A DNA stretch of 64,000 bases from Sphaerochaetaceae bacterium (GCA_024405015.1 JAKSPE010000005.1:36149-100148), one strand, 5' to 3'. Shown: positions 13,886-57,460, numbered from the stretch's first letter. The notes: a model not told the origin generated them from the sequence alone. A program made the numbers and translations.

Positions 13886-13899
13886 CAGAAAACAAAAAA

Positions 13900-14107: not shown

Positions 14108-14126
14108 TGATATAATTTACAATATG
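14108..14126 (+). promoter_or_regulatory. extended -10 promoter abutting the start codon (candidate leaderless mRNA)
   Basis: TGaTATAAT at 14108-14116, then 7 nt, then ATG at 14124. No SD is present. Confidence 0.45.
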
Positions 14127-14792
14127 GGAAAAGATGCTGCATTGAATTTGCCAGAAGGAATCATTGATTCGAAGAGACTCGCCTCTATGATTGAATCCAA
14201 ATCCGTTTACCGGGAAATTGGCAAACTCATTCAAGACAACAGAATCACCCGTCTTGGTCGTGGTCAGTACATCGCAGGTAGTAAATCTAAGTATGACTAC
14301 ACTCCATCTGAAGACCTTAAGAAAGTTGAGAAGGTTATTCGGAAGCAGTTTCCAGATCTTGATTTCAGAATCGGGGAGGCCTACCAGTTGAACTGGTTTG
14401 TCAATCACCAGATTTCAAGAAATGTAATCATTGTTGATGTTGAGAAGATGTTGGCGGAATCTGTTTTCTTCACCTTGAGGGAGAAATTTCATACTTTGCT
14501 AAGGCCTGGCATGAAGGAAATGGCAAACTACATCCAAGATGGAACTGTGATTGTTCAAAACCTTGTTTCTGGATCTCCAAGCACAAAAGACAGCAATGTT
14601 GCACCATTGGAAAAGCTCCTTGTCGATATCGTTTGTGACAAGAAATATTTGAACTTCATCCAAAAATCGGAATTTTCTGGCATTTATGAAAATGCATTTG
14701 CATCGTACAATATCAACAGAGCGGCAATGCTTCGGTATGCCGGTAGGCGTAGTTGTAGGGAAGAGGTGGAAAGTTTGATGGAGAATCTATGA
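14124..14792 (+). CDS. AbiEi-like antitoxin / transcriptional regulator partner of AbiEii (DUF6577-like)
   Basis: The N-terminal segment ...IGKLIQDNRITRLGRGQY resembles the AbiEi wHTH R.G.Y motif. Its stop overlaps the start of an AbiEii gene (ATGA). Confidence 0.6.
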   Translation: MGKDAALNLPEGIIDSKRLASMIESKSVYREIGKLIQDNRITRLGRGQYIAGSKSKYDYTPSEDLKKVEKVIRKQFPDLDFRIGEAYQLNWFVNHQISRNVIIVDVEKMLAESVFFTLREKFHTLLRPGMKEMANYIQDGTVIVQNLVSGSPSTKDSNVAPLEKLLVDIVCDKKYLNFIQKSEFSGIYENAFASYNINRAAMLRYAGRRSCREEVESLMENL

Positions 14793-15832: not shown

Positions 15833-15838
15833 GTGTTC

Positions 15839-16081
15839 TTAGTTGATTTCCTGTTCCAATGAATTGAAAGCCTCTGTGTCAAAGAACTCTGCTAGTGTGA
15901 TTTCAAATCCATCGCAGAGTTTCTTCAGTGTGACGACTCCTGGATTTTTGCTTTCTCCGTTGAGAATGCTTTTGATGGTTGACTGGGAAACTGCAGAGAT
16001 ATTGGCAAGTCCATTGGGAGTGATTCCTTTCTGCTTGCATAGTTCAAGTATCCTTTCTGCGACGATTTCTCTAGTCCCCAT
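15839..16081 (-). CDS. XRE family HTH transcriptional regulator
   Basis: 80 aa. ...LCKQKGITPNGLANISAVSQSTIKSILNGESKNP is a Cro/C1-type HTH. Confidence 0.85.
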   Translation of the reverse strand: MGTREIVAERILELCKQKGITPNGLANISAVSQSTIKSILNGESKNPGVVTLKKLCDGFEITLAEFFDTEAFNSLEQEIN

Positions 16082-16096
16082 AGTTTCCCTTTTTTA

Positions 16097-16160
16097 AGTG
16101 ATATGTCACTGAAAAGTATGGTATTTAGGATTAGAGTGTGATATTAGTGATATATCACTA
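16097..16160. promoter_or_regulatory. two palindromic operator candidates in the XRE/PEGA divergent promoter region
   Basis: AGTGATATGTCACT at 16097-16110 is an imperfect palindrome. TAGTGATATATCACTA at 16145-16160 is a perfect 16-bp palindrome that overlaps a TGnTATAT -10-like box. Confidence 0.5.
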
Positions 16161-16212
16161 ACATAATAAAAAACTTGTAAGTTAATGCACTTACTTACAG
16201 AAGGGGAGAAAA

Positions 16213-16590
16213 ATGAAAAAGACGATGTTGTTTATTCTCGCGGTTGTTTGCGTTCTTGTACTTTCAAGTTGTGCGACAATGTTTTCAGACGATTATGAAA
16301 CAGTCACATTTAGCTCTGATCCAAGTGGAGCTACTGTGAAAATTGATGGTGCAGAAAGAGGTACGACTCCAACGGCACTGGTTTTGAGAACAGATAGGAC
16401 TTATGTTGTTGAGGTCTCAAAAGAAGGGTATCGTCCACAGATTGCGACAATAAGTAAAAATGTTAAGTGGGGATGGCAGCTTGTAGATTTCTTTGTGTGG
16501 CCAGTAATCGGGAACGTTGTGGATTTTATTAATGCTGACGGTTACACATTAGACCCAACTAATGTAGTTGTTTACTTGCCTAAGGAATAA
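16213..16590 (+). CDS. PEGA domain lipoprotein
   Basis: Signal peptide with lipobox LSSC. VKIDGAERGTTP...VEVSKEGYRP is a PEGA-type motif. Confidence 0.75.
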   Translation: MKKTMLFILAVVCVLVLSSCATMFSDDYETVTFSSDPSGATVKIDGAERGTTPTALVLRTDRTYVVEVSKEGYRPQIATISKNVKWGWQLVDFFVWPVIGNVVDFINADGYTLDPTNVVVYLPKE

Positions 16591-16618
16591 TTTAGAAATT
16601 GTTCAAGGAGCAATGAAA

Positions 16619-17188
16619 ATGAAAAAATTATCAATTGTATTGGTTTTACTATTGATTGTCGGAGCTTTTGCTTTCTCTTCTGACGATTTTTACAAGTGCT
16701 CTAGTCTTATTGATAAGAAATTGGATAATTCCAAGGTCTCAATGATTCAGACATATTCTGCAAATCTTACAGAGCTTGAAAGATATAATCTTTATGAAGC
16801 TAATAAATCGTCCACCGGAGTTCCATTACTGTGTAACTTACTTCTTGGTGCTGGTATTGGATCTTACATACAGGGTGATACCGTTGGTGGAACTGTTTTC
16901 CTCTGCGGCGAATTGGCATCTGCTATTCTTTATGGTGCAAGTTATATGAGAATGGTTTTTGCGGAGACAGAATCAGAGTTTGAGAATGCTGCAGCCCAAG
17001 CTACAATTTGGAGTATAGCTCTTTTGGGTGTTCGAGTCGCAGAATGTATCAGACCTTTTACTTATGCAAAAGAGTATAATAAGCGACTTTCAAATGCTCT
17101 TTATGGAGTTCCATCAATAGCAGCTATACCAACCATCAATTCTGATGGACAAACTGGACTTATGCTGAGTGCAAGAATAGATTTGTAA
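16619..17188 (+). CDS. hypothetical membrane protein with signal peptide
   Basis: AAGGAG lies 8 nt upstream of ATG 16619. It has an N-terminal signal, and Gly-rich hydrophobic segments (LLLGAGIGSYIQGD, FLCGELASAILYG). No family assigned. Confidence 0.6.
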   Translation: MKKLSIVLVLLLIVGAFAFSSDDFYKCSSLIDKKLDNSKVSMIQTYSANLTELERYNLYEANKSSTGVPLLCNLLLGAGIGSYIQGDTVGGTVFLCGELASAILYGASYMRMVFAETESEFENAAAQATIWSIALLGVRVAECIRPFTYAKEYNKRLSNALYGVPSIAAIPTINSDGQTGLMLSARIDL

Positions 17189-17597
17189 ATAATTTTGTTT
17201 TCTAGGCTGAGAGGCTGCAACGTATGTTGTGGCCTCTTCTTTTATCTGGATCATACCCAGATAAAAAAACAGATGCTTGGGAGTGAAGAAGGTTCCCAAG
17301 CATCTCACACTAAAAGGAGGTATGAAAAAAACTGTTGCTCTGCCTAATTAATAGCAAGTACCGTGCCAACTTCTGTTTTTGGCCTGAAAAAATTTCAAAA
17401 CAGCAGTTTTTCATCCTACTTTTGCCTAAAATTGTCGTAACTCATTGTCTTTGGCCTTCTTCTGGGGTGTGCAGAAAATGCACAGATGTGAAGAAAATGA
17501 AATGGGTGTGAAATTTTTGCACACTGGTATGGTCTCCTGTCTTGACAGATTGGAATAAAAGGCAATTTGCAATATGCTAAGGACAACGGAGAATCCT

Positions 17598-18245
17598 ATG
17601 GACAAAGCATGTGTCATTTTCGATATGGATGGAACATTGATCGATTCAATGCCTTATTGGAACATCAGTGTGGAAGAGGTTGTCGCCAAGCGTGGAGTCA
17701 CCAAGATCCCAAAGGCATTGCGTGACAAGACTGTCGCAATGACCGTCATCGATTCCTGCAACCTGTTCATCAAGGAATTCGGTCTGGATTGCGATGCCCA
17801 ACAGATGATGGACGACGTCTACAAGATGATGGAGTACCACTATGTCCATGACGTACCGCTTAAGCCAGGTGTCCCGGAGTATCTTGAGGCTTTGAAGAAA
17901 AAGGGCATCAAGATGTGTACCGCCTCTGCCACCCGTGAGGACCAGCAGGCAATTGCGCTCAAGCGATTTGGAATCTATGACTATTTTATCGACACGGTCT
18001 CTGCCGAGCGAGTTGGTGTGAGTAAGAGCGATGGCCCTGACATTTACGACTATTGTGCAAAGCTCATGGGCTGTGACCGAACAAACGCTGCCGTCTTTGA
18101 GGATTCCTATGTTGCCGCAAAAACCGCAAAGGATGCCGGCTATTATGTTGTTGGCTGCTGTGATGAGGTCTCACAGGATACTTGGAAAGACCTGATTTCC
18201 GTGACCGACGAGCACTTTGAGGACTGGAGAACGCTTAATGCCTAG
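17598..18245 (+). CDS. HAD family hydrolase (beta-phosphoglucomutase/phosphatase-like)
   Basis: DMDGTLIDS motif I and a later FEDS..... motif. Start at MDKACVIFDMDG. Confidence 0.8.
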   Translation: MDKACVIFDMDGTLIDSMPYWNISVEEVVAKRGVTKIPKALRDKTVAMTVIDSCNLFIKEFGLDCDAQQMMDDVYKMMEYHYVHDVPLKPGVPEYLEALKKKGIKMCTASATREDQQAIALKRFGIYDYFIDTVSAERVGVSKSDGPDIYDYCAKLMGCDRTNAAVFEDSYVAAKTAKDAGYYVVGCCDEVSQDTWKDLISVTDEHFEDWRTLNA

Positions 18246-46598: not shown

Positions 46599-49550
46599 AT
46601 GAAGAAATTCATCGTTTTCGCTCTTGTCCTCGCTCTCGCAATGACATCCGTTTTCGCAATGGGTCTTGCTGAAGATATGAAGGCACAGGAAGCTGCAGCA
46701 GCTGCTGTCGTTGAGACTCCAGTTGTTGAAACAGTTGCTCCAGTTGTTGCTGGTCCTGCAACTTACACATTCGGAATGGGAATCACATTCGATGATGAAC
46801 AGTCCAACGACACAACAGCAGCTTACGATGCAGTTGTCGCAGCAGTCGTTCTCGACGCTGAGGGAAGAATCGTTGCAGTTCAGATCGATGACGCTCAGAA
46901 CAAGATGACAAAGGACGATGTCGACCCAGAGAAGACATTCAAGTCCAAGTATGAGCTCCAGTATGACTACAACATGGTCAAGTTCTCTGAGGCAACAAAC
47001 GAGTGGTTCGAGCAGGCAGCTGCATTCGAAGACTACTGCGCTGGCAAGACTGCTGCAGAGATTGCTGATCTCGCAACAAGAGTCAGAACAGAGGCTGAGC
47101 CACATCCAGGCTACGTCGTCACAGCTGACGAGGAGCTTTTCGCATCCTGCTCCATGTCCATCACAAGCTTCAAGGAAGCAGTCGTGAAGGCATGTGCAGA
47201 CACAAAGGCAAAGACATTCACAACAGATGCTCCATTCTGTGTCGGACTCAAGGTCAGCACAACAGCTGAGGAGTCAACAGATGAAGTCATCAAGATGTAC
47301 GCAAACTTCGGTGCAGTCGTCGTAGACGAGAACGGAGTCATCCTTGCTGCTCTCCTCGATGCAATCCAGCCACAGTTCAAGGTTGAGGATGATGCATTCA
47401 CATTCAAGGGCACAAAGAAGGAGCTCGAGTTCGGCTACAACATGGTCAAGTTCTCCGAGGCAACAAACGAGTGGTTCGAGCAGGCAGCAGCATTCGAGGA
47501 TTACTGTGCAGGTAAGACAGGTGCTGAGGTTGCAACACTCGCAACAAGAGTCAGAACAGCAGACGAGCCACATCCAGGCTACGTCGTCACAGCTGACGAG
47601 GAGCTTTTCGCTTCCTGTTCCATCCAGATTGTTGAGTTCAAGTCCGTCCTCGCACAGGCAGCCGGTGCTGAGCCAGTTGTTGAAGCAGTTGTTGAGGGAC
47701 CTGCAACATATACATTCGGAATGGGTATCACATTCAGCGATGAGCAGTCCAACGAGACAACAGCAGCATACGACGCAGTCACAGCAGCAGTCGTCCTCGA
47801 CGCTGAGGGAAGAATCGTTGCAGTTCAGATCGATGACGCTCAGAACAAGATGACAAAGGACGATGTCGACCCAGAGAAGACATTCAAGTCCAAGTATGAG
47901 CTCCAGTATGACTACAACATGGTCAAGTTCTCTGAGGCAACAAACGAGTGGTTCGAGCAGGCAGCTGCATTCGAAGACTACTGCGCTGGCAAGACTGCTG
48001 CAGAGATTGCTGATCTCGCAACAAGAGTCAGAACAGAGGCTGAGCCACATCCAGGCTACGTCGTCACAGCTGACGAGGAGCTTTTCGCATCCTGCTCCAT
48101 GTCCATCACAAGCTTCAAGGAAGCAGTCGTCAAGGCTTGCAACGATACAAAGGCAAAGACATTCACAACAGATGCACCATTCACAGTCGGACTCAAGATC
48201 AGCACAACAGCTGAGGAGTCAACAGACGAGGTCATCAAGATGTACGCCAACTTCGGTGCAGTCGTTGTAGACGAGAACGGCGTCATCCTTGCAGCACTTC
48301 TTGATGCCATCCAGCCACAGTACAAGGTCGAGGAAGAGGCATTCACATTCAAGGGAACAAAGAAGGAACTTGAGTTCGGTTACAACATGGTCAAGTTCTC
48401 CGAGGCTACAAACGAGTGGTTCGAGCAGGCAGCAGCATTCGAGGATTACTGTGTAGGTAAGACAGGTGCTGAGGTTGCAACACTCGCAACAAGAGTCAGA
48501 ACAGCTGACGAGCCACATCCAGGCTACGTCGTCACAGCTGATGAGGAGCTTTTCGCTTCCTGTTCCATCCAGATCGTTGAGTTCAAGTCTGTTCTCGCAC
48601 AGGCTGCTGGCGCTGAGGCTGTTGCTCCAGCTACATACACTCTCGGTATGGGAATCACATTCGATGATGAGCAGTCCAACGAGACAACAGCTGCTTACGA
48701 TGCAGTTGTCGCAACAGTCGTCCTCGATGCTGAGGGCAAGATCGTTGCAGTCCAGATCGATGACGCTCAGAACAAGATGACAAAGGACGATGTCGACCCA
48801 GAGAAGACATTCAAGTCCAAGTATGAGCTCCAGTATGACTACAACATGGTCAAGTTCTCTGAGGCAACAAACGAGTGGTTCGAGCAGGCAGCTGCATTCG
48901 AAGACTACTGCGCTGGCAAGACTGCTGCAGAGATTGCTGATCTCGCAACAAGAGTCAGAACAGAGGCTGAGCCACATCCAGGCTACGTCGTCACAGCTGA
49001 CGAGGAGCTTTTCGCATCCTGCTCCATGTCCATCACAAGCTTCAAGGAAGCAGTCGTCAAGGCTTGCAACGATACAAAGGCAAAGACATTCACAACAGAT
49101 GCTCCATTCTGCCTCGGTGTTGCAGTCAATACAAAGGCTGACGAGTCTACAGATGAAGTCATCAAGATGTATGCTGAGTTCGGTGCTGCAGTTGTTTCCG
49201 CTGATGGAACAGTTCTCGCTTGTCTGACAGATGCTATCCAGCCACAGTTCAAGGTTGAAGATGATGCATTCACATTCAAGGGCACAAAGAAGGAACTCGA
49301 GTTTGACTACAACATGGTCAAGTTCTCTGAGGCAACAAACGAGTGGTTCGAGCAGGCAGCTGCATTCGAAGACTACTGCGCTGGCAAGACTGCTGCAGAG
49401 ATTGCTGATCTCGCAACAAGAGTCAGAACAGAGGCTGAGCCACATCCAGGCTACGTCGTCACAGCTGATGAGGAGCTTTTCGCTTCATGCTCCATGCAGA
49501 TCACAGGCATGAAGGCTGTCATCTCCAAGGCTGCTAACAACGCCAACTAA
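46599..49550 (+). CDS. secreted six-module repeat protein (FMN_bind-like modules with A-S-C-S in place of S-G-A-T)
   Basis: GGGAG SD. Sec signal peptide (…MTSVFA/MG) with no lipobox. Six modules of 152-159 aa make up the rest of the protein. The gene ends 8 nt before apbE. Confidence 0.85.
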   Translation: MKKFIVFALVLALAMTSVFAMGLAEDMKAQEAAAAAVVETPVVETVAPVVAGPATYTFGMGITFDDEQSNDTTAAYDAVVAAVVLDAEGRIVAVQIDDAQNKMTKDDVDPEKTFKSKYELQYDYNMVKFSEATNEWFEQAAAFEDYCAGKTAAEIADLATRVRTEAEPHPGYVVTADEELFASCSMSITSFKEAVVKACADTKAKTFTTDAPFCVGLKVSTTAEESTDEVIKMYANFGAVVVDENGVILAALLDAIQPQFKVEDDAFTFKGTKKELEFGYNMVKFSEATNEWFEQAAAFEDYCAGKTGAEVATLATRVRTADEPHPGYVVTADEELFASCSIQIVEFKSVLAQAAGAEPVVEAVVEGPATYTFGMGITFSDEQSNETTAAYDAVTAAVVLDAEGRIVAVQIDDAQNKMTKDDVDPEKTFKSKYELQYDYNMVKFSEATNEWFEQAAAFEDYCAGKTAAEIADLATRVRTEAEPHPGYVVTADEELFASCSMSITSFKEAVVKACNDTKAKTFTTDAPFTVGLKISTTAEESTDEVIKMYANFGAVVVDENGVILAALLDAIQPQYKVEEEAFTFKGTKKELEFGYNMVKFSEATNEWFEQAAAFEDYCVGKTGAEVATLATRVRTADEPHPGYVVTADEELFASCSIQIVEFKSVLAQAAGAEAVAPATYTLGMGITFDDEQSNETTAAYDAVVATVVLDAEGKIVAVQIDDAQNKMTKDDVDPEKTFKSKYELQYDYNMVKFSEATNEWFEQAAAFEDYCAGKTAAEIADLATRVRTEAEPHPGYVVTADEELFASCSMSITSFKEAVVKACNDTKAKTFTTDAPFCLGVAVNTKADESTDEVIKMYAEFGAAVVSADGTVLACLTDAIQPQFKVEDDAFTFKGTKKELEFDYNMVKFSEATNEWFEQAAAFEDYCAGKTAAEIADLATRVRTEAEPHPGYVVTADEELFASCSMQITGMKAVISKAANNAN
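46752..49547 (+). repeat. in-frame tandem repeat: three super-units of about 930-945 bp, each with an A and a B half (6 modules)
   Basis: Module boundaries are A1 46752-47219, B1 47220-47696, A2 47697-48164, B2 48165-48623, A3 48624-49091 and B3 49092-49547. Blocks of more than 250 nt (for example from 46918, 47863 and 48790) are essentially identical at the nucleotide level. Confidence 0.9.
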
Positions 49551-49558
49551 TTGATGAT

Positions 49559-50746
49559 ATGCAAAGAAAGACAATAGTGTCGGGCATCGCCATTGTGGTG
49601 ATGCTCGGCATCCTTTCTATTACAGGTTGCACAAAGGCTGCCTCTGAAAAACCTTCAGAGGCAGTTTCTGCGTCTAAAGAACAGATTGTCGTGGCCGTTT
49701 CCGAGCCTGTGACATCTGCGGAAAAGACACAGCCTGTTGTGGAGAAGGAACCTGAAAAGCCTGTAAAGGAGACTGCCCCAGTGCAGAACCCAAAGGGCCG
49801 AGGTAAGGTCTATTACAATCTCTTTGATACTGTTTCCTATGTCTACAGCTATGCCGGAGACAGCGACGACAGATTCCTCGGAATCTGCGACCAGGTCTAC
49901 GACATTCTGAACGACTATCACATGATGTTTGACATCTACTATGAGTATTCTGGCGTCAACAATCTCAAAACCATCAACCTCAACGCTGGTGGAGAACCGA
50001 TTGCTGTGGACGCAAGGCTCATAAAGTTCCTTCAGTATGCAAAGGAACTTTATGAACTGACAGGCGGCGAGATGGACGTCATGATGGGTTCTGTTCTCTC
50101 TATCTGGCACGAGGCTCGAAACGCATCTGTCCCATATGTACCTTCCACGGAGAAACTGGAAGAGGCAAACAGATTCGTTGGATTCGACTACCTCGAGATA
50201 GATGAAGAGAATGGAACTGTAAGAATTACAGATTCCAGAGCATCACTTGATGTTGGTGCACTCGGAAAGGGCTATGCGACGGAGATGGCTGCAAGGTACC
50301 TTGAGAAAATCGGTGCTGAGCACTATGTCCTGAACATAGGAGGCAACATCCGCATCGTCGGCACAAAGGTCGATGGAAGTGGATGGGTGACAGGAATCCG
50401 AAATCCGAAGGACCCTGATAACTCATTCTCACTGAAGGTCAATATCAGTGATTGTGCATGTGTCACAAGTGGTAGCTATGAGCGATATTTCACCGTCAAT
50501 GGCGTGAAGTACCCTCATATTATCGATAAGGATACCCTGCAGCCTGCCCGTTATTATGAATCACTGACCGTCATCACAAAGGACAGCGGTCTTGCGGATG
50601 CCTTGTCTACCGCACTGTACTGCATGCCTTATGAGGATGGCCTGAAGCTTGTGGAAAGTCTGAAAGACGTGGGGTGCGTCTGGATCTTCTCAAACGGAAG
50701 TATCCGATATACTCCAAATCTGAAAGACGTCGTCATTAATGTCTGA
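49559..50746 (+). CDS. apbE: FAD:protein FMN transferase (ApbE/Ftp) lipoprotein
   Basis: Lipobox LSITGC, a long Pro/Glu/Lys linker, then the ApbE motifs DVGALGKGYA, TSGSYERYF, HIIDK.T and ADALSTAL. Confidence 0.9.
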   Translation: MQRKTIVSGIAIVVMLGILSITGCTKAASEKPSEAVSASKEQIVVAVSEPVTSAEKTQPVVEKEPEKPVKETAPVQNPKGRGKVYYNLFDTVSYVYSYAGDSDDRFLGICDQVYDILNDYHMMFDIYYEYSGVNNLKTINLNAGGEPIAVDARLIKFLQYAKELYELTGGEMDVMMGSVLSIWHEARNASVPYVPSTEKLEEANRFVGFDYLEIDEENGTVRITDSRASLDVGALGKGYATEMAARYLEKIGAEHYVLNIGGNIRIVGTKVDGSGWVTGIRNPKDPDNSFSLKVNISDCACVTSGSYERYFTVNGVKYPHIIDKDTLQPARYYESLTVITKDSGLADALSTALYCMPYEDGLKLVESLKDVGCVWIFSNGSIRYTPNLKDVVINV

Positions 50747-50783: not shown

Positions 50784-52076
50784 GTGCTTTTCAGTAAGAA
50801 GATTTCAGCAGTACATGTACCGCATTGCAAGTCCACACAGGACAAGCATTCCGTACGCATTGCACCACCTGAGTCTGTAACAATTCCTATGTCAATGCAC
50901 TCTGGTGCACCAGCAGTTCCAGTTGTAGCTGTCGGTGACCACGTTTACATTGGCCAGCTGATCGCAAAAGAGGGAGAGGGCAGAGTCTCTTCTCCAATCC
51001 ATGCATCAATCTCCGGAACTGTTTCAGCTGTTGGTGAGAAGTCCATCTCCATCAAGTCTGATGGAAAGATGGAGATCGATCCTCAGATGAAGGCTCCAAA
51101 GCTCGAGACTTTGGATGACTTCCTGGATGGTTGCCGCAAGAGCGGTATCGTCGGTCTCGGTGGAGCAGCATATCCTCTTCACGGTAAGTGGGAAGCTGTC
51201 AGAAAGAACAAGATTGAGACTGTTCTCATCAACGGTGCTGAGTGTGAGCCATATTGTACAGCTGACAACAGAACCATGGTTGAGGACTATGATCATATCA
51301 AGCAGGGTATCGAGATTCTCAAGAGATTCGTAGGTGCAAAGGAGTATGTCATCGGTATCGAGGCAAACAAGCCAGAAGCCATCAAGCTCCTTACAGACCT
51401 CTTCAAGGATGACAGCTCTGTCATCGTCAAGTCCCTTGAGTCCGTCTACCCACAGGGTGCAAAGCAGGTTCTTCTTTGGAACGCAACCGGAAAGGTTGTC
51501 GCTGCTGGTCAGAGACTTGCATCCCTCGGTGTCATCATCACAAACGTCACAACACTCGCAAAGATGGCTCTCTACTTCGAAACCGGTATGCCACTTGTTG
51601 ACAAGTGTGTTTCTGTTGACGGTTCTGCCATCAAGGAGCCAAAGAACATCATCGCTCCAATCGGAACCAGCTACGGTTACTGCATTGAGCAGTGTGGTGG
51701 TTTCAGCTGTGAGCCTGGTCGTGTCATTGAGGGTGGTCCTATGATGGGTCGCACAATCGCATCTCTCGATGAGCCTGTCATCAAGGCTACCAACGGTCTT
51801 GTTGCCATGAGTCAGGCCGATTCCGTCATCCTTGAGCCAACTGCATGTCTGCATTGCGGAAAGTGCGTTGAGGCATGTCCACTGGATCTCAACCCAGTTG
51901 CATACTCCGATGCTCTTGATATCGATGATGAGGACAAGAGAGAGCTGATTCTCAAGAAGGAAGATGTCCCACAGTGCATGGAGTGCGGATGCTGCGCATA
52001 CGTATGTCCAGCTCACAGACCTCTCGTCGCAAACAACAGGGCTGCTAAGAAGTTCCTGAGAGGAAGGAGAAAGTAA
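50784..52076 (+). CDS. rnfC: Rnf complex subunit C
   Basis: AAGGAGG lies 8 nt upstream of GTG 50784. GLGGA..P, NGAECEPY and two 4Fe-4S motifs (CLHCGKCVEACP, CMECGCCAYVCP). Confidence 0.9.
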   Translation: MLFSKKISAVHVPHCKSTQDKHSVRIAPPESVTIPMSMHSGAPAVPVVAVGDHVYIGQLIAKEGEGRVSSPIHASISGTVSAVGEKSISIKSDGKMEIDPQMKAPKLETLDDFLDGCRKSGIVGLGGAAYPLHGKWEAVRKNKIETVLINGAECEPYCTADNRTMVEDYDHIKQGIEILKRFVGAKEYVIGIEANKPEAIKLLTDLFKDDSSVIVKSLESVYPQGAKQVLLWNATGKVVAAGQRLASLGVIITNVTTLAKMALYFETGMPLVDKCVSVDGSAIKEPKNIIAPIGTSYGYCIEQCGGFSCEPGRVIEGGPMMGRTIASLDEPVIKATNGLVAMSQADSVILEPTACLHCGKCVEACPLDLNPVAYSDALDIDDEDKRELILKKEDVPQCMECGCCAYVCPAHRPLVANNRAAKKFLRGRRK

Positions 52077-53017
52077 TGGCAAACAACTATAATCTCATTA
52101 CAGTATCATCACCTCATTTCCACAACGGTTCATCCGGAAGAAGAATCATGCTCGATGTCATCATCGCTCTGATTCCTGCTGCAATCGCTGCTGTGGTGAT
52201 CTTTGGTATGAAGTCCCTTGCTCTGATGGCAACCTGTATCATTGCTGCAATCGCCGCAGAGTCCCTGTTTGACGTCATCGTCAAGAAAAAGAATACCGTT
52301 GGTGACCTTTCAGCTATCGTTACAGGTCTTCTTCTTGCACTGAACCTCGGTACAGAAGTCGCCCTCTGGGAAGCTGCAGTCGGTAGCGTATTCGCAATCG
52401 TATTCGTCAAGTGCATCTTCGGTGGCCTTGGAAAGAACTTCGCAAACCCAGCAATCACAGGTCGTGTCTTCATGATCATCGCCTTCGGTTCCGTCACATC
52501 ATTCGTCAATCCGAAGTGTGTAGAGCTCGTCTCATCTGCTACACCTCTTGCAAACCTTGCACAGGGTGCAATGGATCAGCTCCCAACTGTTGGACAGATG
52601 CTTCTGGGTCTCCATGGTGGTACAATCGGTGAGACATGTATCATCGCTCTTGTCCTCGGATGGGTCTATCTCTCAGTCAGAAAGGTCATCAAGTGGTACG
52701 TCCCAGCTGCATTCATCGCAACAGTCTTTGTTCTGTTCCTGGTCTTCACTGGATCTCCAGTGGTCGCATTCTATGAGATTCTCTCCGGTGGTCTTTTCCT
52801 CGGTGCAATCTTCATGGCAACCGACTACGTCTCAACTCCTATCACAGTCAAGGGTAAGGTCGTCTTCTGCATCTGCTGTGGTATCATCACATTCATCATT
52901 CGTAAGTTCTGTGCTCTTCCAGAAGGTGTCTCATTTTCCATCCTGATCATGAACATCCTCACTCCATGGGTAGAGAAGCTTACTCACAATGTTCCACTTG
53001 ACAGGAGGGGAAAGTAA
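52076..53017 (+). CDS. rnfD: Rnf complex subunit D
   Basis: Polytopic NqrB/RnfD family protein. The SSATPL segment corresponds to the known (S/G)GAT flavinylation site. Confidence 0.9.
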   Translation: MANNYNLITVSSPHFHNGSSGRRIMLDVIIALIPAAIAAVVIFGMKSLALMATCIIAAIAAESLFDVIVKKKNTVGDLSAIVTGLLLALNLGTEVALWEAAVGSVFAIVFVKCIFGGLGKNFANPAITGRVFMIIAFGSVTSFVNPKCVELVSSATPLANLAQGAMDQLPTVGQMLLGLHGGTIGETCIIALVLGWVYLSVRKVIKWYVPAAFIATVFVLFLVFTGSPVVAFYEILSGGLFLGAIFMATDYVSTPITVKGKVVFCICCGIITFIIRKFCALPEGVSFSILIMNILTPWVEKLTHNVPLDRRGK

Positions 53018-54966
53018 TGGCAACCAAGAAAGCTACACAGTTAATTCTCCTCATTGCAACAGTCATCGTCTTCGCAGGCATCCTTGTTGCACTGAACACA
53101 GTAACCGGCCCAAAGATCCTCGCAAACCAGAACAGTGCCGTATTCGAGCCACTGTTCGCGGTCATGCCTGAGGCAAAGGGATTCACAGCTCTTGATCTTG
53201 CTGCAGCTGATACAGTCAAGGCTGCATGGAAGGAGACAAGCGGCAAGGGTTACGTCATCCAGCTCGCTACCAACAAGGGTTACACACACGAGGATATCGA
53301 TATCACAGTTGCTATCGCAGCTGACGGAAAGATCTCTGCTGTAAACCTTGAGTCCTATCCAGAGACAAAGGACTTCGGTAAGGAAACCTACCCAGCAACC
53401 TACATCGGACAGGATTCCACTCTTGCAAATGTCCAGCTCGTAGCTGGTGTCACATTCTCCTCCAAGGCATTCAAGGGTGCCATCGAGGATGCATTTGCAC
53501 TTCTCATTGACAACGGCCTTATCGGTGCTGGTGTCAAGGAGGCAAGCCAGGTCATTACAGAGATGATTCCAGTCGTGAACGCAGACATGTGTTCCGAGAC
53601 AGGCATGCTCCAGGCTAAGGAAGTTGAGGTCAAGGGTGCCAAGAAGGCTTGGGCTTCCGACAGCGGAAAGTCTGTTGCATTCTGGCTCGAGAACGGTGGT
53701 GACTTCCTTGCAATCGTTGACAACACTGGAAAGGTCACAGCATATGACCTCGATGGTAATGACGTCACATTCGCAAAGAACCCAGTCGTCACACTTGCTG
53801 AAGCAGCTTATGACGAGTACCAGAGCGTCCTCAATGCCAAGGATATTGAAGAGATCATGTCTCTCATCCCTGGTGCTGTCGGATTCAGAAAGCTCGCCGT
53901 TGAGGCTCCAGACACCGTCAAGAGCGTTTGGGCAGAGACAAGCGGTCTCGGTTATGTCGTCAGAAGCGCAACAAACAAGGGCTTCACACACGAGTACATC
54001 AACCTCTCTGTTGCATTCACAGCAGATGGTAAGATCTCCAACGTCGTTCTCGAGTCCTACCCAGAGACAAGAGACTTCGGTGCTGATTATCCAGCAACTT
54101 ACATCGGTCAGGATTCCACACTCTCTGGTGTCCAGATCATCGCTGGTGTCACATACTCATCCACAGCATTCAAGGGTGCAGTCAATGATGCATTCACAGT
54201 TCTCACCTCAAACGGTCTCGTTGTTGAGGCAGTCAAGGAGCCAAGCCAGGTCATCGATGAGATGATTCCAGAGAAGGCTACTGCACTGATCAACCCACAG
54301 GGCATCTTCCAGGGTGAAGAGATTGAGGTTAAGGCTGACGGCGTCGTCAAGGCTTGGAGAAACCCAGCCAAGAGCGTTGCCGCTTACTGGATGAACAATG
54401 CTGACGGTGACTTCCTTGTTCTTGCAAACGCATATGGCTGTGCAACCGTCTATGACCTTAAGGGTAACGATGTCACAGGCTCTCAGAAGGCTCTTTCTGA
54501 TGCAGCTCTTGCTAACAGCACATCTGTTCTTGCCAAGGCAACATCCAAGGAGATTGCAAAGGTCACAAAGCTTCTCCCAGCAGGTTCTACTGCTGTTGAG
54601 GTCGCTTGCGACATCTACACATCTGTTGCTGACATCGTCAAGGCCGAGACAGCGGACGGCGTCTACTATGGTTTCCTCTGCCACACTTATGGCTTCGGTA
54701 ACCACGAGATGACCTACTACGTTGCAATCGATCCAAACGGAAAGATCTCTGGTCTTAACACAAGTACACTCATCATCGAAGCTGAGTATTACCCACAGGC
54801 ATCCGTCAAGAAGGCTGACTATGTCGCAGCCCTTACAGGTGTCACAGCAGACTGGACAGGAGAGGAGGCACTGATTGCCAATGCAACTCTCACAACACAG
54901 TCCACACAGACTGCTCTCAACGAGGCATTCGCAGCCTTCGAGCTTCTCACAGGAGGTGCAAACTAA
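53017..54966 (+). CDS. rnfG: Rnf complex subunit G, expanded (649 aa, three FMN_bind-like domains)
   Basis: N-terminal TM helix and the usual position between rnfD and rnfE. The FMN_bind-like C-terminal segments are VAGVTFSSKAFKGAIEDAF (Thr146), IAGVTYSSTAFKGAVNDAF (Thr379) and IANATLTTQSTQTALNEAF (Thr624). Confidence 0.8.
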   Translation: MATKKATQLILLIATVIVFAGILVALNTVTGPKILANQNSAVFEPLFAVMPEAKGFTALDLAAADTVKAAWKETSGKGYVIQLATNKGYTHEDIDITVAIAADGKISAVNLESYPETKDFGKETYPATYIGQDSTLANVQLVAGVTFSSKAFKGAIEDAFALLIDNGLIGAGVKEASQVITEMIPVVNADMCSETGMLQAKEVEVKGAKKAWASDSGKSVAFWLENGGDFLAIVDNTGKVTAYDLDGNDVTFAKNPVVTLAEAAYDEYQSVLNAKDIEEIMSLIPGAVGFRKLAVEAPDTVKSVWAETSGLGYVVRSATNKGFTHEYINLSVAFTADGKISNVVLESYPETRDFGADYPATYIGQDSTLSGVQIIAGVTYSSTAFKGAVNDAFTVLTSNGLVVEAVKEPSQVIDEMIPEKATALINPQGIFQGEEIEVKADGVVKAWRNPAKSVAAYWMNNADGDFLVLANAYGCATVYDLKGNDVTGSQKALSDAALANSTSVLAKATSKEIAKVTKLLPAGSTAVEVACDIYTSVADIVKAETADGVYYGFLCHTYGFGNHEMTYYVAIDPNGKISGLNTSTLIIEAEYYPQASVKKADYVAALTGVTADWTGEEALIANATLTTQSTQTALNEAFAAFELLTGGAN

Positions 54967-55544
54967 TGATGGAAAAGGATATTATCAGCAAGAATCCTGT
55001 AATGGTTCTTTTTCTTGGAGCCTGTCCTGCTCTGGCTGCAACAACCACAGCAACAGCTTCCGTTGGAATGGCAGTTTCCGTTTGTCTGATTCTGGTTCTC
55101 TCATCAGTTCTCATGTCCCTCATGAGAAAGGGTGTTGGTGATGCCATCAGACTTCCTCTTGCAATCGTCATCAGCGCAGGATTTGCTTCCATCGCACAGA
55201 TGGTCATGGCAGCTTACCTTCCTAAGGTCTATGCAATGCTTGGTGTTTATCTTGCAATCGTTGCAGTTAACGCAATGGTCGTGACACACCAGCAGAACAC
55301 AGCTTCCCAGGAAGGCTTCGGAGCTTCTCTGAAGCAGGCTGTCATCACAGGAATCGAGTTCTGCGCTCTCGTGATTGTCATGGGAATCGTCAGAGAGATT
55401 CTCGGCAACGGAACATGTTTCGGTGCAAAGGTCCCATTCTTCGCAAACCACACAATCGCAGTTTTCGGTAAGGCAGGCGGTGCATTCATCGTATTCGCAA
55501 TTCTCCTTGCAGTTGCCGGATGCTTCAGAAAGGAGGCAAAGTGA
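54966..55544 (+). CDS. rnfE: Rnf complex subunit E
   Basis: NPV.V..LG.CPALA.TT is the RnfE/NqrD signature. 192 aa. Confidence 0.9.
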   Translation: MMEKDIISKNPVMVLFLGACPALAATTTATASVGMAVSVCLILVLSSVLMSLMRKGVGDAIRLPLAIVISAGFASIAQMVMAAYLPKVYAMLGVYLAIVAVNAMVVTHQQNTASQEGFGASLKQAVITGIEFCALVIVMGIVREILGNGTCFGAKVPFFANHTIAVFGKAGGAFIVFAILLAVAGCFRKEAK

Positions 55545-56095
55545 TGTCAGCTAAGGAAGTTATCGCAATCATGTTTGCCTGCATTCTCGCAAACAACTAC
55601 GTATTCCAGAATTTCTTCGGTGTTGAGGCTGTCGCTCTCGATTCTGAGAAGGGTATCAAGTGCATGCTCTTCAACGGACTCACAGTCACAGCAGTCCTCA
55701 TCGTCTCCACACTCATCACATGGCCAATCAACGCCATGCTCGCCAGTGCAAGCTACCTTCAGACACTTGTCTTCGCAATCGTCACAACAGCTGTTGTCTA
55801 CGTTGCAGACTTCGTCGCCAAGAAGGTTTGCAAAGAGAACAAGTGTTCTGTCCTTTCCATCGCCATCAACAGCGTCGTCATGGGTGCATGCCTTGTAAAC
55901 GCTGCTAACGGTTACGGATTTGGAACTTCTGTTCTTGCATCTGTCGGTGTCGGACTCGGATACCTTCTGGCAACATTCGTTGTCGCTGGTGTCAGAGAAA
56001 GAGTCAATGAGAAGTTCATTCCAAAGGCATGGAGAGGCGCTCCAATCCTTGCTGCTGAGATGGCTATCATCGCTCTTACACTGTTCGCTCTCTGA
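55544..56095 (+). CDS. rnfA: Rnf complex subunit A
   Basis: ILANNYVFQNFFG... is an RnfA/NqrE-like six-TM protein. Its start overlaps the rnfE stop (ATGA). Confidence 0.85.
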   Translation: MSAKEVIAIMFACILANNYVFQNFFGVEAVALDSEKGIKCMLFNGLTVTAVLIVSTLITWPINAMLASASYLQTLVFAIVTTAVVYVADFVAKKVCKENKCSVLSIAINSVVMGACLVNAANGYGFGTSVLASVGVGLGYLLATFVVAGVRERVNEKFIPKAWRGAPILAAEMAIIALTLFAL

Positions 56096-56469
56096 TGAAG
56101 AGTACTAGCAAAAAGGCACGGATCCTGAGGGATCTGTGCCTGATTTTTGCATTGGTCATCCTTGGTTTGGCTTCTCTTGTGATCATGCGAAGCCGAGGAA
56201 CCGAGGGTGCCTATGCGATTGTGCAGGTCAATGGCATTGAGATTTCACGCCATTCCTTGCATATGGAAGGAACAATTCCAGTAAACGGTGGTACCAATCT
56301 CCTGGAGATCAAGGGAAACCGTGCAAGACTTGTTGATGCAGATTGTCCGGACAAGCTCTGTGTGAGACAGGGTTGGATCCAGTACACCGGACAGTGCATC
56401 ACCTGCCTCCCGAACAAACTTACTGTTACGATTTCGGGTGGCGACGATTCAGTTGAACTGATTCTGTAG
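56095..56469 (+). CDS. NusG domain II-containing protein (DUF1312)
   Basis: N-terminal TM helix, then ...VDADCPDKLCVRQGWI...CITCLPNKL, typical of DUF1312/NusG_II. Confidence 0.8.
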   Translation: MKSTSKKARILRDLCLIFALVILGLASLVIMRSRGTEGAYAIVQVNGIEISRHSLHMEGTIPVNGGTNLLEIKGNRARLVDADCPDKLCVRQGWIQYTGQCITCLPNKLTVTISGGDDSVELIL

Positions 56470-56477
56470 AGGAATAG

Positions 56478-57008
56478 ATGGAAACGAGAAAGATCGCACA
56501 GATGGGACTTCTGATTGCCCTGGCAATGATCCTGTCCTATGTGGAAAGCAGAATACCAGCCTTTGTGGCCATACCTGGAATCAAGATGGGTCTGGCAAAC
56601 ATTGTCGTGGTTTTCGCTTTGTACCGACTGGGGTTCAAAGAGGCTCTTGTCATCACAGCGCTTCGAGTCGTTTTGGCATCTCTGCTTTTCGGATCGGTTC
56701 TTTCCATGGCCTATTCGGCCTCTGGAGCACTGCTTTCACTTGTCGGAATGACACTTCTGAAGAAAAGCAGACTTTTCGGTACGGTTGCGGTCAGCGTAAC
56801 AGGTGGAGTGCTTCATAATCTTGGACAGATTGCCACAGCTTGTCTCATCCTTGAGACCAATGCAATTGCATATTACATACCGTTTCTCATCATCAGCGGT
56901 GTTGTCACAGGAATTGTAATCGGCTTGGCTGCAGCTATAGTGATCAACAGACTCGATCCTGACAGAAAGGTCAAGGACGACGAGGAAGATGATGAAGAAG
57001 GAGTATGA
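56478..57008 (+). CDS. Gx transporter family protein (Hpre_diP_synt_I; ECF S-component-like clan)
   Basis: RKIAQMGLLIALAMILSYVE...IPG.K.GLANIV.......G is typical of PF07456. It has an acidic C-terminal tail. Confidence 0.8.
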   Translation: METRKIAQMGLLIALAMILSYVESRIPAFVAIPGIKMGLANIVVVFALYRLGFKEALVITALRVVLASLLFGSVLSMAYSASGALLSLVGMTLLKKSRLFGTVAVSVTGGVLHNLGQIATACLILETNAIAYYIPFLIISGVVTGIVIGLAAAIVINRLDPDRKVKDDEEDDEEGV

Positions 57009-57460
57009 AAATGGCTGAAGATAAGTTTTCACCAACCGGAATGAACGGAAAAGACAAGAACTTCTCACCAAAGTTCTTTGAGACAGAAGGCAAGATGGGT
57101 GCTTTCCAGAAGGGAATGCACTGGGTAACCTCTGTTCTTGAGACAATCCTTGCAATTGTGCTTGTTCTTGGTATTCTGTTCTCATTCGTACAGATGCCTG
57201 AAAAGCTTCTGGACATCATCAGCGGTGGTTCCAGCACATTGCTTGAGCTTGTCGAGTACATTGCTCTCATCATCATCGCCATCGAGCTCATCCATGTGAT
57301 CATGGTGCAGAACCTCGATTCCGTCATTGAGATTCTCATGATGGCATTTACTCGAGAACTTGTCATCAAGGAGTGGGCTATGTGGGAGCTTCTGCTTGGT
57401 GTTCTCGTCATTGCCGGACTTTTCGCCATCAAGAAATATCTGCTCAGCAAGGAAGATTGA
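57005..57460 (+). CDS. PsiE-like (phosphate-starvation-inducible E family) membrane protein
   Basis: Four-helix membrane protein. LLELVEYIALIIIAIELIHVI resembles the PsiE family. It overlaps the upstream stop (ATGA). Confidence 0.6.
   Translation: MKMAEDKFSPTGMNGKDKNFSPKFFETEGKMGAFQKGMHWVTSVLETILAIVLVLGILFSFVQMPEKLLDIISGGSSTLLELVEYIALIIIAIELIHVIMVQNLDSVIEILMMAFTRELVIKEWAMWELLLGVLVIAGLFAIKKYLLSKED

What the first reader, a model, noticed from the sequence alone, without database searches (positions are those of the whole stretch)
53017..54966. RnfG is three times the usual size, with an internal duplication and three FMN_bind-like domains, none carrying the canonical D..SGAT motif
Typical RnfG has about 180-210 aa, with one TM helix and one FMN_bind domain. 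Here the architecture is a TM helix, then [FMN_bind-like domain plus a linker domain of about 110 aa] twice, then a terminal FMN_bind-like domain. The duplicated halves are visibly paralogous (ETSGKGYVIQLATNKGYTHEDIDITVAIAADGKISAV versus ETSGLGYVVRSATNKGFTHEYINLSVAFTADGKISNV). The putative acceptor segments read QLVAGVT(146)FSS, QIIAGVT(379)YSS and ALIANAT(624)LTT. Thr is kept in all three, but the upstream Asp and the G-A pair are altered. Together with the A-S-C-S modules, this suggests that the local ApbE recognises a relaxed or different motif.
Basis: partly seen in the sequence, partly recalled or inferred. Interest (0 to 1): 0.72.

Follow-up and report, generated by a model that had tools for sequence, protein, structure and literature searches.

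The report
Modular triple-domain RnfG, RnfB-less Rnf
This gene encodes an unusually long, internally duplicated version of the flavin-carrying RnfG subunit, in a conserved gut-bacterial Rnf-like operon that has lost its ferredoxin-side parts and probably passes electrons from NADH outward along a chain of periplasmic flavins.

Summary
ORF 53017-54966 encodes a 649-aa membrane-anchored RnfG homologue with the architecture TM-(N-M)-(N-M)-C. The two N-M modules are 53% identical (E 2e-80). N1 and N2 pass Pfam FMN_bind. C does not, but it is homologous by profile-profile comparison.

The protein is not a one-off. It is the n=2 form of a modular family, TM-(N-M)n-C, in which n=1 (about 410-445 aa) dominates and n=2 or 3 arose several times. 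N domains carry a near-invariant AG[V/S]T, while C domains normally carry canonical [S/T]GAT; the window's ANAT is the only one among about 200 family sequences. Published mutagenesis shows that Asp loss and Ala-to-Val at position -1 still allow ApbE flavinylation. A special local ApbE is therefore not required.

The larger finding is the context. The operon is secreted repeat protein, ApbE, RnfCDGEA, EetA/EetB and ECF. It has no RnfB, and RnfA/RnfE have lost 3 of the 4 Cys ligands of the membrane [2Fe-2S] cluster. Across the 81 related loci where both subunits could be scored, only the three with RnfB keep all four Cys.

The best reading is a one-way NADH-to-periplasmic-flavin relay. Multi-flavinylated RnfGs were already described, so this is a new variant of a known kind. 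Flavinylation itself is untested.

The parts
53017..54966 (+). Long RnfG homologue, 649 aa, architecture TM-(N-M)-(N-M)-C (NCBI MCQ2411968.1, named 'FMN-binding protein', Sphaerochaetaceae MAG)
53038..53106 (+). N-terminal membrane anchor (about aa 8-30) at the start of a long helix modelled as aa 5-49
   Evidence: The hydrophobic stretch is visible in the sequence. Helix 5-49 is in the model. It aligns to the TM and linker helix of 7zc6_G.
53143..53511 (+). N1, an FMN_bind-type domain (aa 43-165) with motif AGVT. The Thr146 codon is at 53452-53454.
   Evidence: Pfam 35.0 bits. Contiguous phmmer alignment of aa 8-135 to RnfG 7zc6_G. Thr146 starts helix 146-165.
53527..53832 (+). M1, an orphan linker domain (aa 171-272): one helix, five short strands, then a long helix
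   Evidence: No Pfam hit, no PDB sequence hit and no fold hit. A profile search of 1.84 billion representatives finds it only in this RnfG-like family.
53845..54210 (+). N2, the second FMN_bind-type domain (aa 277-398) with motif AGVT. The Thr379 codon is at 54151-54153.
   Evidence: Pfam 36.0 bits. Paralogue of N1. Thr379 is invariant in alignment A1.
54226..54531 (+). M2, the second copy of the linker domain (aa 404-505)
54595..54951 (+). C, a divergent FMN_bind-like terminal domain (aa 527-645) with motif ANAT. The Thr624 codon is at 54886-54888. Relatives carry [S/T]GAT here.
   Evidence: Pfam 14.2 bits, below the cut-off. hhalign N against C 98.3%. Motif statistics.
46599..49550 (+). Secreted 983-aa protein made of three tandem copies of a roughly 315-aa unit (six sub-modules, each ending ...DEELFASCS...). 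It is a conserved operon partner that is single-unit in most relatives.
49559..50746 (+). ApbE flavin transferase, with a lipoprotein-type signal (…ITGC)
   Evidence: Pfam ApbE E 8.5e-63
50784..52076 (+). RnfC, the NADH-binding and FMN module with two 4Fe-4S motifs
   Evidence: TIGR01945 373 bits against a cut-off of 246. Pfam domains. Two Fer4 motifs.
52076..53017 (+). RnfD, which keeps the flavinylation site S-S-A-T156-P-L (codon 52541-52543)
54966..55544 (+). RnfE homologue. The first [2Fe-2S] Cys is kept; the second is replaced by Ala.
55520..56095 (+). RnfA homologue. The true start is probably the ATG at 55544. Both [2Fe-2S] Cys ligands are lost (Val/Glu and Ser).
56095..57008 (+). NusG_II protein (56095-56469, in the position eetA would occupy beside eetB; identity with eetA not tested) and PF07456 EetB (56478-57008), the ECF-S subunit that exports FAD to ApbE
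   Evidence: Pfam. EetB function from PMC9973259.
57373..59890 (+). ECF transporter module EcfA-EcfT-EcfA', the probable energising part of the FAD exporter
   Evidence: ORFs. The same gene order carries ABC_tran-CbiQ-ABC_tran in L001. The Pfam assignment for the window copies is inferred from that.

Best explanation
The 649-aa protein is the periplasmic electron-relay subunit of a derived, RnfB-less Rnf-type complex (RnfC-RnfD-longRnfG-RnfE-RnfA).

It is anchored by one TM helix. N1 occupies the place of the normal RnfG flavin domain next to RnfD. The string N1-M1-N2-M2-C extends outward from there.

Each of the three FMN_bind-type domains offers a Thr at the N-terminal end of its last helix (T146, T379, T624). 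The operon's ApbE would attach FMN to these, using FAD exported by EetB/ECF.

Electrons would run NADH -> RnfC (FMN, two 4Fe-4S) -> RnfD flavins -> RnfG flavins. From there they would pass to the co-encoded secreted repeat protein and/or an unknown extracytosolic acceptor. The reverse direction is possible.

The ferredoxin branch (RnfB and the RnfA/E [2Fe-2S] cluster) no longer exists. The pathway is therefore linear, not the semicircular ferredoxin:NAD+ loop of canonical Rnf.

The extra N-M module is a copy-number expansion of a naturally modular family, (N-M)n-C. It adds one more flavin station, or more reach.

Shown here: the anatomy, the homology, the family-wide conservation of the Thr motifs, the absence of rnfB from the operon, the loss of the Cys ligands, and their co-variation.

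Inferred: that all three Thr carry FMN, the direction of electron flow, and the acceptor.
For: Anatomy and duplication.

N and C are homologous FMN_bind-type domains.

The model has pLDDT 90.6, with each Thr at a helix start. Its best structural matches are RnfG chains of three solved Rnf complexes: 7zc6_G with E 3e-7 and TMt 0.65, then 9eri_G and 8rb9_G.

The TM helix plus N1 aligns contiguously with RnfG residues 11-138. N1 therefore sits in the canonical position.

AG[VS]T[YF]SS is the most conserved peptide of the family. The locus finder chose it as its search pattern. Thr379 is invariant in alignment A1. N motifs are AGVT or AGST in 121/132 and 83/87 domains.

Three complete rnfCDGEAB operons (L080, L081, L083) have an N-M-C protein with AGVT in the N domain as the only rnfG gene in the stretch fetched. 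Their N domain presumably has to carry the working flavin.

Mutagenesis from the literature shows that Ala-to-Val at -1 and Gly-to-Ala at -2 keep about 50% flavinylation, and Asp-to-Ala has little effect (PMC12052999).

No RnfB is present in the 64-kb window.

RnfA/E have lost 3 of 4 cluster Cys. In the 81 loci where both subunits could be scored, only the three with an RnfB-like ORF keep all four Cys. That ORF was confirmed as RnfB by Pfam PF04060 in L080 and L081.

The operon UP-ApbE-RnfCDGEA-NusG_II-EetB is conserved in about 80 species-level genomes.

EetB is the FAD-exporting ECF-S subunit (PMC9973259).

Multi-flavinylated RnfGs have already been proposed to feed extracytosolic acceptors (PMC8238504).
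Against: No experimental flavinylation data exist for any member.

I found no naturally occurring site with Val at -1, or Asn at -2, reported as flavinylated in the papers searched.

The C domain falls below Pfam's threshold.

pTM is only 0.59, so the relative placement of the domains, and hence flavin-flavin distances across the M domains, is unknown.

rnfB could lie elsewhere in the genome. Only 64 kb was available.

RnfE and RnfA are retained without their cluster, and this model does not explain why.

The acceptor is unknown. The upstream repeat protein could not be shown to be an FMN_bind fold.
Confidence: 0.55

Rival explanations
1. Only the terminal C domain carries covalent FMN; it bears the canonical [S/T]GAT in relatives. 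The N-M modules are flavin-free structural stalk elements. They set how far a single swinging flavin domain can reach, so n=2 simply gives a longer arm.
For: The C domain has the canonical motif in 89-91% of family members, while N never does in the majority. Canonical RnfG is known to act as a mobile shuttle (PMC12174285). Low pTM is compatible with flexible tethering.
Against: The N-domain Thr and its flanks (AG[VS]T[YF]SS) are the best-conserved part of the protein, which a mere spacer would not need. N1, not C, occupies the canonical RnfG position after the TM helix. In this very protein the C motif is the degenerate one (ANAT). Ala-to-Val at -1 still allows flavinylation.
Confidence: 0.25
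2. It is an ordinary ferredoxin:NAD+ Rnf complex whose RnfG happens to be decorated. RnfB is encoded elsewhere, and the complex works as usual.
For: N-M-C RnfGs also occur in complete rnfCDGEAB operons (L080, L081, L083). Only 64 kb of the genome could be inspected.
Against: Three of the four Cys that bind the RnfA/E [2Fe-2S] cluster are replaced. That cluster is described as strictly conserved and as the entry point for RnfB electrons (PMC12174285). The loss co-varies perfectly with absence of rnfB across the scored loci. RnfA and RnfE score far below NCBIfam cut-offs (70 against 229 bits; 136 against 213 bits).
Confidence: 0.08
3. The N-type domains bind flavin, or another ligand, non-covalently. 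The conserved Thr serves as a helix cap or phosphate ligand rather than as an ApbE target.
For: Covalent and non-covalent flavin sites are evolutionarily interconvertible (PMC11334425). The motif departs from [S/T]GA[S/T] at two positions.
Against: The domain is extracytosolic, where a dissociable flavin would be lost. An ApbE and a dedicated FAD exporter are encoded in the same operon. Thr is essentially never replaced by Ser, Ala or Gly in more than 200 N domains.
Confidence: 0.1
4. Artefact: a mis-assembled tandem repeat, or a fusion of two adjacent genes.
For: None beyond the unusual length.
Against: The two modules are only 53% identical. There is one uninterrupted ORF, translationally coupled at both ends. 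The same 649-650-aa protein is found in five assemblies. Independent n=2 and n=3 relatives exist.
Confidence: 0.01

Closest known systems
Canonical RnfG / NqrC (e.g. C. tetanomorphum RnfG, PDB 7ZC6 chain G; A. woodii 9ERI_G; A. vinelandii 8AHX_G)
   Same: [quoted passage not shown] The gene lies between rnfD and rnfE. These are the best sequence and fold matches.
   Different: It is three times longer, with two extra FMN_bind-type domains and two copies of an orphan M domain. The motif in the canonical-position domain is AGVT rather than [S/T]GAT. It scores far below the TIGR01947 cut-off (24.9 against 102 bits). The complex lacks RnfB and the RnfA/E cluster ligands.
Multi-flavinylated RnfGs and multi-flavinylated proteins (Meheust et al. 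2021, eLife, PMC8238504; Huang et al. 2024, PMC11334425; Tong et al. 2023, PMC10339131)
   Same: It is an extracytosolic protein with more than one Pfam FMN_bind domain, encoded next to ApbE. Such proteins were proposed to carry electrons over longer distances or to alternative extracytosolic acceptors.
   Different: That survey defined RNF clusters by the presence of RnfB, so RnfB-less operons such as this one were not classed as RNF. The characterised multi-flavin proteins carry DxxxGAT motifs. Here the N motif is AG[V/S]T. The SGAT-bearing C domain of relatives is invisible to Pfam. An M domain separates the flavin domains.
NQR/RNF-like two-subunit systems (Meheust 2021; Huang 2024)
   Same: Both are partial Rnf/Nqr machinery proposed to give one-way electron flow from cytosolic NAD(P)H to an extracytosolic flavinylated domain.
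   Different: Those systems consist of an NqrB/RnfD-NqrF fusion plus one RnfG/NqrC-like subunit, and their D subunit lacks the flavinylation Thr. Here RnfC, RnfD (with Thr156), RnfE and RnfA are all kept as separate genes.
Listeria monocytogenes EET system (PplA, FmnB/ApbE, EetA/EetB, FmnA ECF)
   Same: Both have a membrane-tethered or lipoprotein carrier with several ApbE-flavinylated FMN_bind domains. Both encode ApbE with an EetB-type FAD exporter and ECF components in the same locus.
   Different: The membrane electron source there is Ndh2 and demethylmenaquinone, not an Rnf-type complex.

Membership tests
RnfG (TIGR01947 / subunit G of Rnf) | Scores above the curated family cut-off | tested here: not met
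   TIGR01947 24.9 bits against a cut-off of 102. Only aa 10-117 align.
RnfG (TIGR01947 / subunit G of Rnf) | N-terminal TM helix followed by an FMN_bind alpha/beta domain, with a fold matching solved RnfG | tested here: met
   phmmer match to 7zc6_G over aa 8-135, E 1.5e-5. The top five Foldseek hits are RnfG chains, best E 3e-7 and TMt 0.65.
RnfG (TIGR01947 / subunit G of Rnf) | Encoded between rnfD and rnfE in an rnf operon | tested here: met
   The order is RnfC-RnfD-this ORF-RnfE-RnfA with overlapping stop and start codons.
RnfG (TIGR01947 / subunit G of Rnf) | Thr in a [S/T]GAT motif carrying covalent FMN | tested here: inconclusive
   Thr is present in all three domains, but the motifs are AGVT, AGVT and ANAT. 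Covalent FMN cannot be tested here.
Canonical ferredoxin:NAD+ Rnf complex | RnfB subunit present | tested here: not met
   No second poly-ferredoxin ORF in the 64-kb window. None in 78 of the 81 related loci scored. The rest of the genome was not available.
Canonical ferredoxin:NAD+ Rnf complex | Four Cys in RnfA/RnfE coordinating the intramembrane [2Fe-2S] | tested here: not met
   Only RnfE Cys1 remains. RnfE Cys2 is Ala, RnfA Cys1 is Val/Glu and RnfA Cys2 is Ser.
Canonical ferredoxin:NAD+ Rnf complex | RnfC NADH/FMN module and an RnfD flavinylation site | tested here: met
   RnfC TIGR01945 373 bits against 246. RnfD TIGR01946 260 bits against 207, with S-S-A-T156-P-L.
Multi-flavinylated protein (Meheust et al. 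2021) | More than one Pfam FMN_bind domain in a predicted extracytosolic protein | tested here: met
   Two PF04205 stretches above the gathering score. A third homologous domain is detected by hhalign. There is a single N-terminal TM anchor.
Multi-flavinylated protein (Meheust et al. 2021) | ApbE encoded in the same gene cluster | tested here: met
   ApbE at 49559-50746, E 8.5e-63.
Multi-flavinylated protein (Meheust et al. 2021) | FMN actually attached at each predicted site | not testable with these tools
   This needs mass spectrometry or in-gel fluorescence of the expressed protein.

The most novel reading that the evidence does not exclude
The operon encodes a previously unrecognised 'half-Rnf'. 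This would be a widespread gut-bacterial complex in Sphaerochaetaceae, Oscillospiraceae and Erysipelotrichaceae. It has discarded RnfB and the RnfA/E [2Fe-2S] cluster and works as a linear, possibly still ion-pumping, NADH:extracytosolic-acceptor oxidoreductase.

Its periplasmic wire would be built from covalent flavins attached at a non-canonical A-[G/S]-[V/C/S]-[T/S] site class. In this organism that could mean up to ten flavins: RnfD 1, RnfG 3, and the 983-aa partner 6.

If it still pumps ions without the RnfA/E cluster, it would be a natural experiment on which half of Rnf/Nqr couples electron transfer to ion translocation.
Probability: 0.3. Interest if true: 0.8.

Novelty: new variant of a known kind. 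Interest (0 to 1): 0.55.

Why it matters
Rnf and Nqr are central energy-converting complexes of anaerobes and pathogens. Where ion translocation is coupled is still debated: RnfD/NqrB or RnfA-E/NqrD-E (PMC12174285).

A conserved natural clade keeps all four membrane subunits but has lost RnfB and the RnfA/E iron-sulfur ligands, and extends RnfG into a multi-domain flavin string. It offers a ready-made dissection of the two half-pathways. It also points to an unrecognised route by which abundant gut Firmicutes and spirochaetes could export reducing power.

The family also shows that Pfam- or motif-based censuses of flavinylation sites miss real candidates. In n=1 relatives the SGAT-bearing C domain is not seen by PF04205, and the Pfam-visible N domain has AGVT. 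That bears on ApbE specificity and on flavin-tag engineering.

At least one cultured carrier exists, Neglectibacter caecimuris M00184 (L084), so the predictions are testable.

Tried and rejected
(1) Assembly or annotation artefact. Rejected: the modules are only 53% identical, the same protein appears in five assemblies, and independent n=2 and n=3 relatives exist.

(2) M linker domain as a known fold. Pfam gave nothing. The M-domain profile against PDB sequences returned only spurious WD-repeat-like hairpin matches. Foldseek of the whole model found no significant hit beyond RnfG chains. A weak PepSY or propeptide-like resemblance (4k90_B, probability 0.21) was not pursued.

(3) The upstream 983-aa protein as a string of FMN_bind domains. 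hhalign aligns only 22-26 columns around the motif and helix, with probability about 20%. Foldseek of a confident unit model (pLDDT 94.6) gave no hit at E <= 0.001, only weak IscU-like matches with probability 0.7-0.87 and E about 0.1. This is left open.

(4) A correlation between the RnfG module number and the unit number of the upstream protein. None was seen: loci with n=2 RnfG have single-unit partners.

(5) Literature on RnfB-less Rnf operons or AGVT-type sites. Three phrase searches found nothing specific. Absence from this library is not proof of novelty.

(6) L070 has a Fer4 ORF downstream. It lacks the RnfB N-terminal PF04060 domain, and its RnfA/E lack the Cys ligands, so it was not counted as RnfB.

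(7) Flavin-to-flavin distances could not be measured, because model coordinates are not exposed to the scripting tool.
Full report
**1. What is there**

The ORF at 53017-54966 (+) is real and encodes 649 aa. A GGAGG ribosome-binding site precedes its ATG. Its first base is the last base of rnfD's stop codon, and its own stop overlaps the start of rnfE.

It is deposited as MCQ2411968.1, 'FMN-binding protein', from a Sphaerochaetaceae MAG. The same 649-650-aa product was called in four further independent assemblies.

The gene neighbourhood, all on the + strand, is:
- a secreted 983-aa repeat protein (46599-49550)
- ApbE (49559-50746)
- RnfC (50784-52076)
- RnfD (52076-53017)
- this protein
- RnfE (54966-55544)
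- RnfA (55520-56095; the likely true start is 55544)
- a NusG_II protein (56095-56469)
- a PF07456 protein (56478-57008)
- an ECF ATPase/T module

**2. Checking the observation**

Splitting the protein shows that aa 43-272 and 277-505 are paralogous: 53% identity over 233 aa, E 2e-80.

Pfam FMN_bind hits both N-terminal halves of these modules above the gathering score (35.0 and 36.0 bits). The C-terminal domain reaches only 14.2 bits, E 0.07. Three lines of evidence show it is still an FMN_bind-type domain:
- BLASTP to domain 1 gives 30% identity, E 4e-6.
- A profile-profile comparison of N-type against C-type domains gives 98.3% probability, E 2e-14, over 108 columns.
- In an AlphaFold2 model (37-sequence alignment, mean pLDDT 90.6, pTM 0.59) all three domains share the same strand-strand-strand-strand...helix order.

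In that model T146, T379 and T624 are each the first residue of the last helix of their domain.

The two roughly 100-aa linker domains (M) have no Pfam, PDB-sequence or fold match.

**3. It is one copy-number variant of a modular family**

Among the 120 best homologues the architecture is TM-(N-M)n-C. n=1 occurs in 110, n=2 in 8 (plus one partial sequence), and n=3 in one 860-aa protein. One further relative is fused to RnfD (P0073).

A scan of one genome per species found 156 species with a relative. Of the 80 loci fetched, plus four from metagenome look-ups, 75 are n=1 (about 410-446 aa) and 6 are n=2.

An exhaustive HMM search with the M-domain profile against 1.84 billion representative proteins found 71 clusters at E <= 1e-10. 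Essentially all were RnfG-like proteins of 400-450 aa with M at about residues 170-270. About eight were 637-668-aa proteins, all but one with two M stretches. The weaker multi-stretch hits look like chance beta-hairpin repeats. M is therefore an orphan domain restricted to this family, and the long form makes up about a tenth of it.

Nearest-neighbour comparison of N domains shows that the duplication happened independently at least three times:
- in the window lineage together with P0002
- in the P0020/L005 Sphaerochaetaceae lineage, whose N1 is 82% identical to single-module proteins
- in the Oscillospiraceae/Eubacteriales group, where P0006 has a further recent duplicate at 88% identity

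**4. The motifs in family context**

N-type domains carry AGVT (109/132) or AGST (12/132). The Thr is essentially invariant.

C-type domains carry [S/T]GAT in 106/119. The alternatives are ATAT (6), AGAT (2), and single cases of ASAT, GGAT and AGAS. ANAT occurs only in the window protein (the same picture appears).

AG[VS]T[YF]SS[STK]A[FI] is the most conserved peptide of the whole protein; the locus finder selected it automatically. Thr379 is invariant in alignment A1.

In n=1 relatives Pfam detects only the N domain, not the SGAT-bearing C domain.

The deviation of the C motif from [S/T]G is enriched in multi-module proteins: 13 of 15, against about 10 of 185 single-module proteins. These cases come from few lineages, so this is only a lead.

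**5. Does this need an unusual ApbE?**

The consensus site is D-x-x-[S/T]-G-A-[S/T]. The 2025 ApbE review summarises the mutagenesis of Bertsova et al. 2019 (PMC12052999):
- Asp-to-Ala has minor effects.
- Gly-to-Ala and Ala-to-Val reduce flavinylation to about 50%.
- Only removing the Thr abolishes it.

The structurally solved C. tetanomorphum RnfG itself has Val at -6 (…EDEIVAITGAT…). The same operons also contain canonical sites: RnfD S-S-A-T-P-L here, and [S/T]GAT C domains in relatives.

A relaxed site is therefore compatible with ordinary ApbE chemistry. It is a clade-wide feature, not a local one.

The comparison with the 'A-S-C-S modules' is suggestive. Across homologues that site reads A-[G/S/Q/T]-[C/V/I]-[T/S], which overlaps AG[V/S]T. 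It remains unproven, because only 22-26 columns align (probability about 20%). A confident model of one unit (pLDDT 94.6, pTM 0.92) finds no FMN_bind structure, only weak IscU-like matches at E about 0.1.

**6. The context changes the interpretation**

No RnfB is encoded in the window. The only ORF with ferredoxin-type Cys motifs is RnfC.

I aligned RnfE and RnfA with the solved A. woodii and C. tetanomorphum subunits. Three of the four Cys that bind the intramembrane [2Fe-2S] cluster are replaced:
- RnfE VVNC becomes VNA.
- RnfA GIC-P becomes GVE.
- RnfA TTNC becomes INS.

The 2025 RNF/NQR review describes this cluster as strictly conserved, and as the station that takes electrons from RnfB across the membrane to RnfG (PMC12174285).

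In the 81 related loci where both subunits could be scored, only three keep all four Cys. They are exactly the three with an RnfB-like ORF carrying four ferredoxin-type Cys motifs (L080, L081, L083). Pfam found the RnfB-specific PF04060 domain plus 4Fe-4S domains in the two I tested, L080 and L081. All others lack RnfB and have lost three or four Cys.

RnfC and RnfD score above their curated cut-offs. RnfA and RnfE fall far below theirs.

The RnfB-less operon [about 330-416-aa secreted or lipoprotein]-ApbE-RnfC-D-G-E-A-NusG_II-PF07456 is conserved in these groups:
- Sphaerochaetaceae
- Oscillospiraceae
- Erysipelotrichaceae
- Ca. Limivicinus
- the cultured Neglectibacter caecimuris

PF07456 is EetB, the ECF-S subunit that exports FAD for ApbE. 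eetB commonly travels with eetA, apbE and rnf genes (PMC9973259).

The window's 983-aa protein is three tandem copies of the unit that is single in most relatives. It is 70% identical to the L001 partner. Sub-module counts per protein are 2 in 72 proteins, 4 in 60, 6 in 3 and 8 in 1.

**7. Most likely mechanism**

This is a linear electron path: NADH -> RnfC -> RnfD (Thr156-FMN) -> RnfG N1 -> N2 -> C -> partner protein or an unknown acceptor. ApbE installs the flavins, supplied with FAD by the EetB/ECF exporter.

N1 is placed at the canonical RnfG position for two reasons. The TM helix plus N1 aligns contiguously with RnfG residues 11-138. The whole 187-residue RnfG chain superposes with TMt 0.65.

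The three complete rnfCDGEAB operons show only an N-M-C rnfG with AGVT in the stretch fetched. This argues that the AGVT domain is a working flavin site.

The steps not shown are covalent FMN at each Thr, flavin spacing across the M domains, the direction of flow, the acceptor, and whether ions are still pumped.

The main rival is that only the C domain carries FMN and the N-M modules are a stalk. It is weakened by the extreme conservation of the N motif, but not excluded.

**8. Comparison with what is known, and novelty**

Multi-flavinylated RnfGs were already reported bioinformatically and proposed to feed alternative extracytosolic acceptors (PMC8238504). Multi-FMN proteins have been shown to be fully flavinylated in vitro (PMC10339131). 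One-way NQR/RNF-like two-subunit systems are also described. The bare idea of a long RnfG with several FMN_bind domains is therefore known.

I could not find the following in the library:
- the (N-M)n-C family with its orphan M domain
- the split between a Pfam-visible AG[V/S]T domain and a Pfam-invisible SGAT domain
- the RnfB-less clade lacking the RnfA/E cluster ligands

The earlier survey defined RNF clusters by the presence of RnfB, so such operons would not have been classed as RNF.

My rating is a new variant of a known kind, with moderate interest. The interest rises if the half-Rnf reading is confirmed experimentally.

Noticed in passing
window 54966-56095 (RnfE, RnfA); loci L001-L084: RnfA/RnfE have lost 3-4 of the 4 Cys ligands of the intramembrane [2Fe-2S] cluster in 78 of the 81 related loci scored. 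Only the three loci with an RnfB-like ORF (L080, L081, L083) keep all four.
   Followed up: yes
window 46599-49550: The 983-aa secreted protein is three tandem copies of a roughly 315-aa unit. That unit is a single-copy lipoprotein or secreted protein upstream of ApbE in most relatives. Each unit has two sub-modules ending in A-[G/S/Q/T]-[C/V/I]-[T/S]. The fold is confidently modelled but matches no solved FMN_bind structure, only weak IscU-like hits.
   Followed up: partly
homologues of the 983-aa protein (P0180, P0183, P0184, P0188, P0190, P0195, P0181, P0194): Some relatives of the repeat unit are fused to periplasmic sugar-binding domains (PF13407, PF00532, PF13416), to Big_2, or to FMN_bind (PF04205). 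This hints at a substrate-binding or redox partner role.
   Followed up: no
P0073 (747 aa): A relative in which RnfD (PF03116) and an N-M-C RnfG are fused into one polypeptide. This supports direct RnfD-RnfG cooperation.
   Followed up: no
window 55520-55546: The longest RnfA ORF starts at 55520. Relatives start at the equivalent of the ATG at 55544, which overlaps the rnfE stop, so the real start is probably 55544.
   Followed up: partly
RnfG family C domains: Departure of the C-domain motif from [S/T]GAT (ATAT, ASAT, ANAT) is concentrated in proteins with two or three N-M modules: 13 of 15, against about 10 of 185 single-module proteins. It may reflect few lineages.
   Followed up: partly
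window 57005-57460: A 151-aa hydrophobic ORF without any Pfam hit lies between eetB and the ECF genes. An unannotated 167-aa gene occupies the same position in L001/L002.
   Followed up: no
L080, L081, L083: Complete rnfCDGEAB operons, with RnfB and all four Cys, also use an N-M-C RnfG (AGVT in N, AGAT or SGAT in C). They lack the upstream repeat protein and ApbE within the stretch fetched. The long RnfG therefore appears to predate the loss of RnfB.
   Followed up: partly
window 12001-18000 and 1-2000: GC content drops to 0.39-0.42, against about 0.49 elsewhere in the window. This may be foreign DNA.
   Followed up: no
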